A stretch of DNA of 64,000 nt from Chrysomallon squamiferum (Eukaryota > Animalia > Mollusca): positions 4,960,001 through 5,024,000 of the forward strand of contig CM022675.1 of assembly GCA_012295275.1 (NCBI GenBank), in the 5' to 3' direction. Positions 1-25,020 of this stretch are shown here, piece by piece. The notes beneath the pieces are model-generated. The model saw only the letters and a list, made by a program, of their open reading frames with translations, had not been told where the DNA came from and ran no database searches. The translations under genes and the position numbers were made by a program. Numbering within the stretch: position 1 is the stretch's first letter; the number at the start of each line of letters is the position of its first letter.

Positions 1-2969
1 TTTTGTTTTATTTTATTTTATTAATATTTTATTTTTTCTAAATTTCCTCTCTTGTTGTCGAAATATGTATATTATTAATTATGACACAAATATAACGATT
101 TATTTTCCCCTTTTCACATAAATTATATACAACAAATTACAAAAAATATTAAAATAAAAGAAATCTGGAAAGTTAAAAAAGGAAGAAGAAAAAAAAAAAA
201 GAATAATTAAAGGAATACAAAAATGAAAATATATTTAATTAATTGTAATAAGATTAGCAGAATAAATAAATAAGAATAAAAACTAAAAAACAATATATCT
301 AGTAAATTAAATTTAGTGAAATCAAATCAGTTAAAATTATTAAAACAAAATAGTAAAATTAAAACTGACCTGACTTGTTTGATGGATGTTGAGTCTCAGC
401 GGATTGTTTCCTTAGAGTTATCTCCCCTGATGTTGTTGGTTCAGAAGCAGAAGAAAAAGACGGATTCGAGAAAAGTTTGGAAGTTGCCAATTTTGGCGTA
501 GTTGCTGCTGTTGTTTTCTGTGTCTGTTTCGCAGGTGTTGCCACCGATGTGGACGTTGTTACTGGTGTAGTTACATTATCTGTAAATACATAAAAGACTA
601 TCTCAAGAAGACGTTTGTTGTTTTGTTTTTGTTTGTATGTCATCTTTTAACTTTATTATTATTATTATTACTAGTAGTAGTAGTAGTAGTTGTAGTAGTA
701 GTAGTAATAATTTTAGTAGTAGTATTGGTTTTAGTAGTAGTAGTTATAGTAGCAGTAGTAGTTTAAATTATATATAGTTATTATTTCACAACACATACAT
801 ACATATAAATATGTATGTACATACATACACACATACATGCCTATAATACATAATACTGTTTCATTTTACATAAAAAAGTACACACAAACATACAAATACA
901 CAAGCACATAGCTAGAGATATAGATATTTGTAAATGGGTCGATTTTCTGTGATCATTTTTAACTAATAAACAAATCGACTTTTTAACAATAATAATTTTA
1001 ATTAATAAATAAATTGACTTTGTAGAGTTTGTTTTACCGTGTTGTTTTATACTTACATTTCTGACAAATAGCTGTATAGTTTTGGTCTGATTTGTAACTG
1101 TAATATAATCTATTATTTTTAGTAAACCAGACCATCATTTTAAGATCACCTTCTGAAACTGGTTTCTGAAACGATACCACGCTACCTGCAAGATTTAAAA
1201 CAAGTGTGTTAGAATTTTGTTTTACACAGAGGAAGAACTAACAACAGATACTGAATGTCTATTCTTTGTCGCTTTCAGCAGCAACACAAACATCTATTAA
1301 ATAAAGATTATCACAAACATGAAAAAAATAAATATAACAAACACACAAAGAATAAGACACATACTTCTACACAAACAAACACAACACATATTCACATTTC
1401 TGCCTATAATTTACCATCAATCCACAGCAGTCTGACATCTCTGTGGAGTCCAATCCAGTAGTAAAGATTTGTTTGTAGCAGATTCTGCAGTGATGAGACT
1501 GTACTGCTGCTTACTTTAAACATGTCAAAATGTCTGCTTGCATAGTTCCATGACATCATCCGCCACGAAACACAAGTTTTAGAATCACAGCTGATAAATG
1601 AGAAGAAAGATGAGTCATCTACAAACAGATAATGAAAATGATGTTGTAATGAAGGAAAATTTCATTTTATTTTATTTCTATATTACATTATTCCTCGTTA
1701 ATAATAATAATAATAATAATAATAATAATAATAATAATAATAATAATAATAATCATCATCATCATCATCATTATCAGATTATTTATTTATTTATTAGATA
1801 TTTGAACTATGTTAAAATAAAATGACCTGTGTACACTACGTATGCTTTGTAGCTGTCACAGTTTTGGAAACCAATTGTAAAACTGTCAGAATTGAGCTTG
1901 ACGTAGCCGCAGCGCTTGATTCCGTCAGCGCTGTCGTCGATTGTAACTGAAGACGGAAGATCTGTAATGAAGTAATTTATATATTGTTATAATTATCACT
2001 ATATCGATGCCTATTGATTCCAGACTTTATACATTCATTCATTATTGATTCGTTCGTTCTTTCGGACATCGTTTATTCATTCATTCGTGTGTTCGACTGA
2101 TGTTAATAAAATAATTTTAAAAAGATAAATATGTTTTTGTGTACCTGTTCTATAAATAGAAACTGTATTTCTTCCTCCGCAGTATTCTTCATATGTCCCT
2201 GCACATCGAACTCGTTTTGTAGTTGACTTAACAGGACTTGCTGTGTCAGAGATTTCACAGTAACACTGTTTTCCCTACAAAACACGAAATAAATAACAAT
2301 AATATCAAAAAATAACCTGGAATAAATGTGGAAATAAATTTACAATTAAAGTATGAACACAACAACAATAACGACAACAACAACAATTAAAACAAGAGGA
2401 GTAATAATAATAATAATAATAATAATAATAACAATAAAAAGAAGGATATGTGTAGTAGTAGTGGTAGAAGTGGTAATAGTAGTAGAAGATGAAGTAGTGG
2501 TATTGGTTGCTGCAGTGACAGTTTAATAGTAGAAGAATACCTGTCTGTGTGTCTCATTTGTATGTGTGTTATTCAGGTAACCTAAAACAAGTATATATTT
2601 AACACTTTTTGATTTGAATTCAGACTTTATGAAGAGAAGAATTTACCAACCTGTAAACCAATTCTTCCATTGCTTGGTTTACATTGCTGGAAGCATTTAA
2701 AAGCATCATTGTCTTGTATTGAGTATTTACTACTCAAACTCCCAACATCGATATCTCCAGCGTACTGGAATAATGTTTCATTGGAATCTGTAAACAATAA
2801 CAACACACACACACACACACAAAAATTAATTAATAATAAATAAGTAGAAATAATAAGAAGAATAAAAAAATTAAAAACAAAATAAAAGCAAAATAAAGCA
2901 ACTATTTATTTATTTATTTATTTATTTATTTATTTGATGTGTATAGCTCTTATTAGTGGTTTCGTAGAT

Positions 2970-5121
2970 TAGTGATTTTCAAACACTGTGCCGCTGCAGA
3001 CTAGTGTGCCGTGAGAGATTGTCAGGTGTGCCGTGGGAAATTATCCAACTTAGCTTAATTAGTCCAGAAAAAGAAAGAAATGATTGAGTTACTGCAGGTG
3101 AACTGCCATGGTTGAGTGTCTGTGTCTGGCGAAGTAATTAAATACTCTTCCATGTACTGACCTTCAGGCTGCATCAGAGCCGCAATAATGACGTTATTAA
3201 CTTAAGACAGTAGAATTAGTGATGTATTTGAGAGGTGTCGTCGAGAAGACGTACAGCGATGAATGAATATTTGAAAAGAAAAAAAAATGAAGACATAGAA
3301 CTGGGCCCTGGACAAAATTGTAACCCAGGTGAAAAGCGTAATATGTTGGTGCTTGTCAAAAGAAAGCAAACTCGCTGAGTTCAAGAAAACACACCGAAAG
3401 TTATCTTTCGTTTCGATTTACTTTTACTGGGATCCTTCTGCGCTAACTCTTTGCTTGGTGTATGGGCAAAAGTTTAACAACAGTGCATGGTCAGAATGAA
3501 GCTTAAACACCATCTCCAAACGAAACATTCGTCACTTCAAAGCAAGAACACAGACTAATGCGATAGAACATGGAGGAACAGCAGGCTTTATGAGAAAAAC
3601 TACAACGGTGTCTGTGAGAGCTCTCAAAGCTAGTTACTTAGTAGCTGAACTTGTAGCCAAATTGGAAAAAGTCGCACATAGGCAGAGACATTAAAACTAC
3701 CTGACTTCAAAACCGTTGTAAATGAGATGTTCAGCCCCGACGCGGTTAAAGAAGTAGTCAAAGTCCTCTGTCAGATAACACAACTGCCAGACGTATTGAT
3801 GACTTGTCTGGAGACATAGAAAAGGATTGTTTTGGAAAAGATACGCATTGCAACTTGATGAGTCTACTGACGTCAGTGGACATGTTCACCTCATGACCAA
3901 CGTGTGGTTTGTGGCTGGCGACGCCATCAGAAAAAAAACTTCCTGTTTTGCAAGGCAACGCCACGAGAAACAACAGGAGAAGAAATGGGAACAAAGCATC
4001 AAGCCTCACAGCTCCACATGGAGGACAAATGGTTGTCGTGCGGAAACGTGCTGGCTGCGTGTGTGAACTAAAATAGTTTTTCACTGATGAGAAGTTAACA
4101 AAGCTGCTTGTAAGAGATGAGTGGTGTAGAAGGCTGACATACATGGCAGATATATTTCAGCGTCTGAGTGAACTGAACACAGGAATGCAAGGCCGAAATC
4201 AAAACCTGCCCAATAAAATAAATGGATTCCTTTTAAAGGTCTGCCTGTCGCAACAACATCTGTAAAGTACCAACCTGGACGCGTTCCCACTCACACAGAA
4301 ATAACAGGAGATGTCAACACTGCTGAACTGTGTGAGATAATAGGTAAAAGTTTGAGGGATAAGTTGTCATTCTGTTTCATCTCAACTTCCACTGAAAGCC
4401 TTGACTGGGTTAGAGACCCATGTAACTCAGCAGTAGTTTTAACAATGGACAAGATTTTACAAGAGCAGGAGGAACTAACTGAACTGAGACAAGACTTTAC
4501 AAGAGCAGGAGGAACTAACTGAACTGACACAAGACTTTACAAGAGCAGGAGGATCTAACTGAACTGAGACAAGACTTTACAAGAGCAGGAGGAACTAACT
4601 GAACTGAGACAAGACTTTACAAGAGGAGGAGGAACTAACTGAACTGAGACAAGACTTTACAAGAGCAGGAGGAACTAACTGAACTGAGACAAGACTTTAC
4701 AAGAGCAGGATGAACTAACTGAACTGAGACCAAACAGTAGTTTAAAGCTAAGCTTGGCTGATCAATTTTTGTTGTCTGCTGACAAGGACTTCTCCACTGT
4801 GGCAAACAGAGCTATTTCGACATTGACCCCATTTTCCACAACTTATCTGTGTTAGCTCATAACTGCTACAAAAACTAAAAACTGAGAGCGACTGAGAGCT
4901 GTTGAAGAGCTTCGCACGTGCCTTTCTTCAGTTCCTGCTAGGATATCAGCTTTGTGTTCAACAGTCCCAGGTTTCACACTGAGTGAGTGTAAATAAACTG
5001 AGAGATTAAATTGTATTTGCGAATGTGTCATTTTGTAACAGTTTTCGTTGGTGGTGTGATTCACGACTTTTTTAATGTAAAAAAAATGTGTCTTGGCTCG
5101 GAAAATGTTGAAAAAACACAA
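2970..5121 (+). mobile_element. Decayed hAT superfamily (Buster/Charlie-type) DNA transposon in intron 2 of receptor copy 1
   Basis: Termini tagtgattttcaa.. / ..ttgaaaaaacacaa. 8-bp TSD tcgtagat (2962-2969) / tcgttgat (5122-5129); the left copy fits the Buster nnnTAnnn consensus. Frameshifted transposase motifs: BED-finger remnant (..KLKHHLQTKH ~3500), ALQLDESTDVSG (3845-3880), C-terminal dimerisation region PFSTTYLC (~4828). Confidence 0.9.
4450..4729 (+). repeat. 40-bp tandem repeat x7 inside the hAT transposase relic
   Basis: Unit caagactttacaagagcaggaggaactaactgaactgaga, seven near-identical copies. Confidence 0.95.
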
Positions 5122-24500: not shown

Positions 24501-25020
24501 AATTTGACCGATGTTTATGAAGTCAAAAAAAGAATTCCATGAAATGCCAAAATCCAGATATTTAGCCAAAGATCATGCCCATAACAGTTTCAGATTTTGA
24601 TTAACACGAAATTTACCAGAATTGTAGCCTAGGATATCAATAATATAATATAATATAATATAAAATAATATAATATAATATAATATAATATAACATCAGA
24701 GATATAATATTCCTCATAAGTCAGCAATACAAAATTAAAATATGAATACATACATACATACATACATACATACACACATACACACATATACAAATACACA
24801 TAAATACAATACATACATTACATTCGTAAATACAAATATTTGTTACATATAATTTTATTTGTAAGAGAAAATAAATAAATTAATTAATTAATAACACGAT
24901 GTAATAATTTTATTACCGTCGATCCATCGCCATTCAGACTTTCTCTGCAGACCCACCCAGTATTTGCTTTGTTCTCGCTGTCACAGTAGAGTTGTCAAGT
25001 CTGACACTGAACTGTTTTTT
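21530..25020 (-). pseudogene. Receptor copy 3: 5'-truncated; CTLD2 - stalk - TM - intact Tyr-rich tail
   Basis: Partial exon 24917-~25020 (..KYWVGLQRKSEWRWIDG, in-frame TGA at 24981-24983); 23303-23427 (125 nt, frameshifted, ends ..SVACQK); 22760-22984 (stalk); 22570-22645 (TM ALVGGGVAAVVLILFVAVVILLWTK, donor GT changed to TT); 21530-22388 (open tail ending HFYFVLENSD*). Confidence 0.8.

What the first reader, a model, noticed from the sequence alone, without database searches (positions are those of the whole stretch)
370..25020. Tandem family of putative pattern-recognition receptors: CTLD[WSC]-CTLD-stalk-TM-poly-Tyr tail
Seen: four minus-strand paralogs whose hand-spliced exons jointly define a type I membrane protein with two CTLDs, a WSC domain, a mucin-like stalk, one TM helix and a kinase-less Tyr-rich tail. 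Known: CTLD and WSC (yeast Wsc1, Kremen, polycystin-1) are glycan- or ligand-binding folds, and kinase-less receptors such as Dectin-1 and Draper/MEGF10 signal through Tyr motifs. Inferred: this is a fast-turnover invertebrate immune or symbiont-recognition receptor family. I do not recognise it as a named family, and the ORF track misses it.
Basis: partly seen in the sequence, partly recalled or inferred. Interest (0 to 1): 0.85.

Follow-up and report, generated by a model that had tools for sequence, protein, structure and literature searches.

The report
Lectin receptors with a grafted domain
An animal genome holds four damaged or partial copies of a gene family whose spliced RNA places a WSC domain between the two predicted halves of a C-type lectin domain; intact family members likely act as cell-surface recognition receptors that signal through a tyrosine-repeat tail, but no ligand or role has been tested.

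Summary
Four minus-strand copies lie at 370-25,028; none is complete and intact here. Copy B is best preserved: a 567-residue open frame with signal peptide, CTLD N-half, WSC, putative CTLD C-half, second CTLD N-half, TM helix and tail. It lacks two exons and its tail ends at an early stop. All five ectodomain introns of B are spliced out in RNA contigs, with no such joints in the DNA runs, so the nested exon order is shown for a B-like relative. WSC takes the place of the CTLD long loop and no EPN/QPD/WND motif remains. That the flanking halves fold together has only weak support (0.45 against 0.09). The tail has four YxxL-x5/7-YD units but no strict ITAM. Copies A and B share a 5' block at 81-96% DNA identity and have old, diverged 3' exons. 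The RNA link from ectodomain to TM/tail is untested, no homologue was found, and immune function is inferred. CTL+WSC proteins were noted before in bivalves, uncharacterised. Verdict: new variant of a known kind.

The parts
15626..15692 (-). Copy B exon 1: start codon and signal-peptide-like 22 residues
   Evidence: joined to exon 2 in RNA run X9 (skip of 736 nt); signal peptide judged by eye, no predictor run
14665..14889 (-). Copy B exon 2: N-half of CTLD1 (helix-1 Cys, WIGL-like YWVG)
   Evidence: Lectin_C E 9e-4; PDB CTLDs; Atlas 0.94; spliced in RNA
14441..14577 (-). Copy B exon 3: N-half of WSC domain (CxxxC helix, GLQ); first WSC Cys absent
   Evidence: Cys pattern and predicted helix 27-34 at low confidence; no profile hit alone; spliced in RNA
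13953..14076 (-). Copy B exon 4: C-half of WSC domain (CxC, C-x7-CGG)
   Evidence: Pfam WSC positions 47-82, weak; yeast Wsc1 7PZ2 E 0.46; spliced in RNA
13527..13667 (-). Copy B exon 5: putative C-half of CTLD1 (three Cys, predicted beta hairpin, no WND)
   Evidence: weak co-folding with exon 2, 0.45 against best control 0.09; hairpin at pLDDT 56; no profile or fold hit alone; spliced in RNA
13012..13236 (-). Copy B exon 6: N-half of CTLD2; its C-half exon is absent from copy B
   Evidence: 10 of 11 PDB hits are CTLDs, each weak, E 0.06-6; spliced in RNA; no C-half exon found
11756..11825 (-). Copy B transmembrane exon
   Evidence: Kyte-Doolittle peak 2.8; AG/GT sites; RNA link untested
10625..11585 (-). 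Copy B cytoplasmic tail exon, four YxxL-x5/7-YD units, in-frame TAA at 10,873-10,871 after the third unit
5946..6012 (-). Copy A exon 1 (signal peptide), 95.5% DNA identity to B
5223..5337 (-). Copy A exon 2, broken: three deletions (110 nt in all), stops
1827..2787 (-). Copy A exons WSC-N (2,787-2,651), WSC-C (2,274-2,145), CTLD1 C-half (1,961-1,827); open, 43-49% protein identity to B
370..1618 (-). Copy A exons CTLD2 N-half (1,618-1,415), putative CTLD2 C-half (1,185-1,057) and Ser/Thr-rich stalk (579-370, 41% S+T); TM and tail would lie beyond the window edge
7900..8553 (-). Copy C: relic of TM exon (41 nt) and of the tail (deletions, stops)
24916..25028 (-). Copy D: relic of CTLD2 N-half with a stop; the upstream exons are missing and TTAGGG-type repeats lie there
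22570..23427 (-). Copy D: CTLD2 C-half exon with frameshift (23,427-23,303), stalk exon (22,984-22,760, 36% S+T), TM exon (22,645-22,570) with TT at the donor site
21530..22388 (-). Copy D tail exon, open, 285 residues, 17 Tyr, four YxxL-x5/7-YD units

Best explanation
[quoted passage not shown] SHOWN: the exon order signal peptide, CTLD N-half, WSC, putative C-half, second CTLD N-half in RNA of a B-like relative; loss of EPN/QPD/WND; a TM exon and a tail with four repeated YxxL-x5/7-YD units in the same genomic copies; lesions in all four window copies; a 5' block shared by two old subfamilies. INFERRED: the CTLD has become a scaffold that holds WSC where the Ca2+/sugar-binding long loop normally sits, so WSC would be the main ligand-binding surface (glycan or protein). 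A mucin-like stalk would lift it from the membrane. Ligand-driven clustering would let a Src-family kinase phosphorylate the tail, which would then dock Syk-type and other SH2 proteins, as reported for oyster CgCLec-HTM and CgIgR. Birth, death and exchange of segments between copies would vary the binding surface. The most likely role is non-self recognition by immune or epithelial cells.
For:: record 25 of RNA run X9 (760 nt, 57 differing letters) covers five exons end to end. The joints listed with ends read CT..AC (GT-AG on the minus strand) and have no depth in DNA runs X1 and X3. X8 shows three of the same joints in table 5 and a fourth as a loose end. The skips equal the model introns, 5 of 5. 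CTLD N-halves. WSC C-half; six Cys that form three of the four Wsc1 disulfides, and the CGG motif, are kept in A and B (pairing from PMC9024836 passages); weak support that exon 2 and exon 5 products fold together, score 0.45, best of 3 controls 0.09, runs agree in at least 89% of contacts, partner pLDDT 64-65 against 36 with an unrelated chain. That mark was reached by 51 of 78 solved and 2 of 108 mismatched microbial pairs (39 of 65 and 2 of 126 for eukaryotes), but at 0.60 or under by only 5 of the 78, and a pass may come from memory of solved CTLDs. YxxL-x5-8-Y found 4 times against 0.2-0.3 in shuffles (p 0.0002); dN/dS 0.12-0.39 in three ectodomain exons between A and B, 0.27 in TM. A and B are 81-96% alike from upstream through exon 2, then 62-75%, the level of random controls (61-74%); a B-like exon 2 is spliced to an A-type WSC exon in X9; the tail's nearest Atlas cluster is mostly molluscan (0.90); A36R (0.79) and SCIMP (0.76) are leads only.
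Against: No copy in the window is complete and intact, so the full receptor is a composite. The RNA link from ectodomain to TM/tail was not tested. No homologue was found in three word-based searches or in the HMMER search of 1.84 billion proteins with the tail (2 hits, both unrelated repeat proteins). Every Pfam hit is under its curated cut-off. The C-half exons have no profile or fold hit. No strict ITAM; the single ITIM-like and single YxN matches are at chance level. Tail dN/dS between B and D is 0.76, close to neutral. B lacks the second C-half exon, and an X8 contig goes from CTLD2 N-half straight to a stalk-type exon, which leaves a half domain. Nothing here bears on tissue, ligand or induction. 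Both RNA runs come from one study and are contigs only.
Confidence: 0.55

Rival explanations
1. Same architecture, but the receptors serve non-immune recognition (gamete, allorecognition, neural, adhesion or matrix sensing), with WSC and the Ca2+-free CTLD binding proteins rather than microbial glycans.
For: Human Kremen WSC binds proteins (PMC9024836 passage). The CTLDs lack sugar motifs, and the best PDB matches are protein-binding NK-type CTLDs such as CD69, CLEC2D and Ly49. Botryllus allorecognition co-receptors carry similar non-canonical Tyr motifs (PMC12582321 passages).
Against: Tandem expansion, pseudogenes and segment exchange are typical of immune receptor families (established knowledge). 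Molluscan Tyr-motif receptors that were tested act in bacterial recognition. Neither point is decisive.
Confidence: 0.25
2. The domains pair differently: exon 5 completes the following N-half (a circularly permuted CTLD), or exon 5 is not a CTLD half at all, so WSC is not truly inserted.
For: Exon 5 has no CTLD hit alone. Copy A lacks both the last Cys of exon 5 and the helix-1 Cys of exon 6, which would be partners in a permuted domain. B-type transcripts can lack the second C-half.
Against: Exon 5 co-folds with exon 2, weakly. A and D have a separate C-half exon with the last Cys after exon 6. Both Cys losses in A are single-base changes in a damaged gene. The exon 5 + exon 6 pairing was not modelled.
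Confidence: 0.12
3. The family is now largely dead: transcribed pseudogenes or secreted/decoy fragments with no working receptor.
For: All four copies carry lesions; tail dN/dS 0.76; TM linkage in RNA untested.
Against: Precise splicing of five introns in RNA; purifying selection on ectodomain and TM exons; B still has a 567-residue open frame; many related DNA contigs, up to 34 at one place.
Confidence: 0.08

Closest known systems
Uncharacterised bivalve CTL-domain proteins with a WSC domain (Saco et al. 2023, PMC10140915; Results section and passages read, 1 supplement searched without a WSC hit, Figure 7 not visible)
   Same: CTL plus WSC in one protein; lineage-specific; no known function.
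   Different: The text gives no topology, TM or tail for them and calls them bivalve-unique. Orthology could not be tested, since no such sequence could be fetched. They may be the same family; I recall similar unnamed mollusc database proteins, but that comes from no call.
Oyster CgCLec-HTM (review passage, PMC12842671) and CgIgR (abstract, PMC6994640)
   Same: Molluscan single-pass, kinase-less receptors with Tyr motifs reported to recruit Syk; CgCLec-HTM has a CTLD and a C-terminal TM.
   Different: One CTLD or five Ig domains, no WSC; one hemITAM or ITAM against four non-canonical paired units here.
Dectin-1 / CLEC-2 hemITAM receptors (PMC9630629 passages)
   Same: CTLD ectodomain and YxxL signalling without a kinase domain.
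   Different: Type II topology (recalled), a single YxxL, long loop retained, no WSC.
Yeast Wsc1 and human Kremen1 (PMC9024836 passages)
   Same: WSC domain, single TM, cytoplasmic tail; CGG motif and three of four disulfides kept. A Ser/Thr-rich stalk as in Wsc1 (recalled).
   Different: Their WSC is free-standing; here it is nested between CTLD halves and lacks the first Cys (C27-C86 bond of Wsc1).
Polycystin-1 / sea urchin REJ proteins (PMC1934368, search listing only; architecture recalled)
   Same: WSC and CTLD in one ectodomain.
   Different: Domains in series, with REJ/GPS and many TM helices; none of these is seen here.
Biomphalaria GRC single-pass TM cluster (PMC5310918 passages) and Botryllus FcoR (PMC12582321 passages)
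   Same: Clustered, variable single-pass receptors with long tails in invertebrates; FcoR has paired non-canonical Tyr motifs about 30 residues apart.
   Different: Grctm6 has no recognised domain; FcoR is Ig-type. No homology was tested or shown.

Membership tests
CTLD superfamily (fold) | N-half with helix-1 Cys and WIGL-like motif | tested here: met
   exon 2; exon 6, weak; Pfam score under cut-off because only half the domain was scanned
CTLD superfamily (fold) | C-half strands with C2-C3 and C4 closing the fold with the N-half | tested here: inconclusive
   Cys pattern present in B; weak co-folding 0.45 against 0.09; no hit alone
Ca2+-dependent C-type lectin | Long loop with EPN/QPD and WND | tested here: not met
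   no EPN, EPD, QPD or WND in 10 domain exons of A and B; WSC exons stand where the loop would be
WSC domain (PF01822) | Profile match and CGG motif | tested here: inconclusive
   C-half E 0.004 and 0.16, under cut-off; CGG present; the spliced whole domain was not scanned
WSC domain (PF01822) | Eight conserved Cys | tested here: not met
   7 in B, 6 in A; first Cys absent in both; a degenerate WSC
ITAM receptors | YxxL/I-x6-12-YxxL/I | tested here: not met
   0 matches in tails B and D; second motif is YDxC/T/M/A
hemITAM receptors | YxxL preceded by an acidic triad | tested here: not met
   YxxL/I 5 times per tail (p under 0.01), but with one acidic residue at -2 at most; consensus from PMC12582321
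hemITAM / ITAM receptors | Tyr phosphorylation and Syk recruitment | not testable with these tools
   needs cells
Type I single-pass membrane protein | Signal peptide, one TM helix and tail on one mRNA | tested here: inconclusive
   in frame with AG/GT sites in model B; RNA shown only up to exon 6 and a stalk-type exon
Bivalve CTL+WSC proteins (Saco 2023) | Orthology to those proteins | not testable with these tools
   no homologue could be fetched
Polycystin-1 / REJ | REJ and GPS domains, multi-pass TM | tested here: not met
   one hydrophobic stretch after the signal peptide in model B; no such exons among the frames read

The most novel reading that the evidence does not exclude
An unnamed invertebrate receptor family has replaced the sugar-binding loop of its C-type lectin domain with a whole WSC domain. 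It varies this binding head by joining a shared 5' block (promoter region, signal peptide, CTLD N-half) to anciently diverged WSC/C-half cassettes, and signals through a four-unit ITAM-like array: a germline, exon-shuffling recognition repertoire.
Probability: 0.25. Interest if true: 0.8.

Novelty: new variant of a known kind. Interest (0 to 1): 0.52.

Why it matters
A domain inserted into the ligand loop of a CTLD splits the profile match, so such proteins would be missed or mislabelled in lectin surveys; here every Pfam hit fell under its cut-off. If intact members work as inferred, they add a large, variable receptor family to invertebrate non-self recognition and give a testable case of a non-canonical paired Tyr motif docking SH2 proteins. 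The window copies themselves are mostly relics, which limits the value of this locus as against the family.

Tried and rejected
No whole genome is held, so intact paralogues could not be sought. Word-based protein searches with exon 2, tail D and the WSC C-half alignment found nothing; the tool calls such blanks weak. The HMMER search with the tail profile gave 2 hits, both long repeat proteins matched by composition: rejected. The metagenome scan gave 1 locus of 55 candidates, L001, a 61% GC contig matched on the strand opposite its long frames: rejected. Folding exon 5 alone and exon 3 alone gave pLDDT about 55 and, for exon 5, no fold match with E up to 0.001. Profile comparison of the two C-half exons gave no match. 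Pfam hits SdrD_B, LDL, Her-1, Sde2 and AHD are weak and taken as chance. A hidden or inverted stalk or C-half exon in B was sought and not found; the one open candidate between exon 6 and TM runs through a microsatellite. The stalk start seen in RNA is not in the window (0 matches with 3 mismatches). Summed DNA depth is 5-10 times higher on exons 1-2 than on exon 6, but the tool states that this is no copy number, so it is a hint only. Five look-ups of earlier scan findings returned nothing. PMC7494358 held none of my six terms; PMC12297450 passages describe other CTL architectures.
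Full report
Setting. The window is AT-rich (22-40% GC per 2 kb), full of microsatellites, and has spliceosomal introns, so it is eukaryotic. No whole genome is held. The only pointer to a mollusc is the tail's nearest Atlas cluster (score 0.90, phylum known for 16 of 51 members, recognition value low), so the phylum is not established.

Observation. Self-comparison and exon-wise tblastn show four minus-strand copies. 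Copy B has eight exons: signal peptide 15,692-15,626; CTLD1 N-half 14,889-14,665; WSC-N 14,577-14,441; WSC-C 14,076-13,953; putative CTLD1 C-half 13,667-13,527; CTLD2 N-half 13,236-13,012; TM 11,825-11,756; tail 11,585-10,625. All internal sites are AG/GT and the joined frame is open for 567 residues. It then meets an in-frame TAA, after 13 of 18 tail Tyr and three of four motif units. B has no CTLD2 C-half exon and no stalk exon. Copy A has those two exons, but its exon 2 has lost 110 nt and has stops. Skipping that exon would leave a 337-residue open frame. Its TM and tail would lie beyond the window edge. Copy C is a TM/tail relic. Copy D keeps an open stalk and tail, but has a stop in its CTLD2 relic, a frameshift in the C-half exon, TT at the TM donor, and no 5' exons.

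RNA. Of 11 runs listed, 9 hold part of the B region and 2 of these are RNA, both from one study. Two RNA and two DNA runs, all contigs, were laid on 12,950-15,720. A 760-nt contig of X9 covers five exons end to end, with 57 differing letters, so it comes from a paralogue or a distant allele rather than from B itself. A further X9 joint links exon 1 to exon 2. The skips match the five model introns (736, 87, 364, 285, 290 nt). The listed exon joints have no depth in the DNA runs. X8 shows three of them in the joints table and the fourth as a loose end. Two loose ends add information. In X8, exon 6 runs on into a sequence beginning D-K-N-L-T-V-S-T-T-T, like the stalk exon starts of A and D, so the second C-half is skipped or absent in that transcript. 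In X9, a B-like exon 2 runs on into an A-type WSC exon. Some intron stretches are also covered in the RNA runs, so these may hold unspliced RNA or DNA.

Domains. Exon 2 is a CTLD N-half: Lectin_C E 9e-4 over profile positions 3-57, CTLD chains at the head of 37 PDB hits, Atlas 0.94. Exon 6 is a weaker one: 10 of 11 PDB hits are CTLDs, E 0.06-6. Exon 4 matches WSC positions 47-82 weakly and yeast Wsc1 at E 0.46. With the Wsc1 disulfide map (PMC9024836 passages), A and B keep CxxxC, CxC and C-x7-CGG, that is three of four bonds. Both lack the first Cys; A also lacks its partner. Exon 5 has a CTLD-like Cys pattern in B but no hit alone. Folded as a separate chain with exon 2 it scored 0.45 against 0.09 for the best of three controls, with pLDDT 64-65 against 36 beside an unrelated chain. 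The tool rates this weak, and it may reflect memory of solved CTLDs. In canonical CTLDs the long loop after the WIGL motif carries the Ca2+ sites (PMC9630629 passages). Here the WSC exons stand at that point and no EPN, QPD or WND occurs. In Wsc1 the first and last strands are neighbours, which would suit insertion into a loop; that step is inference.

Tail. Tails B and D have 18 and 17 Tyr. Each has four units of YxxL, 5 or 7 residues, then YD, about 26 residues apart. The pattern exceeds composition shuffles (4 against 0.2-0.3, p 0.0002), as does YD (p 0.0002 and 0.006). There is no strict ITAM, and the ITIM-like and YxN matches are at chance level. The tail works like an SH2 docking array by inference only; it fails the ITAM and hemITAM membership tests.

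Evolution. Between A and B, dN/dS is 0.12, 0.39 and 0.30 for WSC-C, exon 5 and exon 6, with dS above 1 (rough at such distances; WSC-N is saturated). Between B and D it is 0.27 for TM and 0.76 for the tail. Yet the upstream region, exon 1, intron 1 and exon 2 of A and B are 81-96% alike, while all downstream exons and introns are at the level of random controls. A is thus a mosaic, or the 5' block is homogenised across subfamilies. The X9 loose end shows that this combination is transcribed. Many related DNA contigs lie on exons 1-2 (up to 34 at one place), which hints at a large family but is no count.

Relatives and literature. No homologue was recovered. These libraries and short queries make the blanks weak, so the range of the family is unknown. 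Ten paper searches were run. None listed a paper whose title or abstract start describes WSC inserted in a CTLD; most subscription papers are not covered. Saco et al. 2023 mention WSC among the extra domains of uncharacterised bivalve CTL proteins, in one sentence. Their Figure 7 could not be seen and the one supplement held has no 'WSC'; this may bear on novelty. Oyster CgCLec-HTM (review passage) and CgIgR (abstract) show that Tyr-motif and Syk signalling is reported in molluscs. Botryllus FcoR (passages) and Biomphalaria Grctm6 (passages) are analogues, not tested homologues.

Verdict. A real, spliced, nested CTLD[WSC] ectodomain in a fast-changing tandem family whose local copies are damaged. 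The receptor mechanism is likely but inferred, and the immune role is the best guess at about even odds. New variant of a known kind; interest 0.52.

Noticed in passing
window 25,040-26,016: TTAGGG telomere-type array (25,565-25,662, 16.5 units) inside a 184-nt composite repeat, lying where the 5' exons of copy D should be; possibly linked to the truncation.
   Followed up: partly
window 51,700-54,620, minus strand: Broken LINE-type retrotransposon: endonuclease (E 3e-17), reverse transcriptase (E 2e-13) and weak RNase H pieces in several frames.
   Followed up: partly
window 60,500-61,610, plus strand: Relic of an LTR-type retroelement: aspartyl protease (E 5e-7) after a gag-like frame without a Pfam hit.
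   Followed up: partly
window 59,229-59,624, plus strand: Frame with a C3HC4 RING finger (E 3e-8); probably an exon of a ubiquitin ligase gene.
   Followed up: no
window 18,600-19,372; 28,660-32,900; 33,733-34,446: Satellites with 29-nt, 40-nt and 125-nt units.
   Followed up: no
window 2,900-5,140: About 2.4 kb insertion in intron 2 of copy A (87 nt in B), with a 40-nt tandem repeat at 4,448-4,730; probably a mobile element.
   Followed up: no
window 15,262-15,330: A stretch of intron 1 of B is covered by RNA contigs with long loose ends and by deep DNA contigs: likely a dispersed repeat found in other transcripts.
   Followed up: no
window 17,481-17,786: 39-nt inverted repeat, 90% alike, about 230 nt apart: possible small DNA transposon.
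   Followed up: no
window 35,457-35,656: Assembly gap of 200 N.
   Followed up: no
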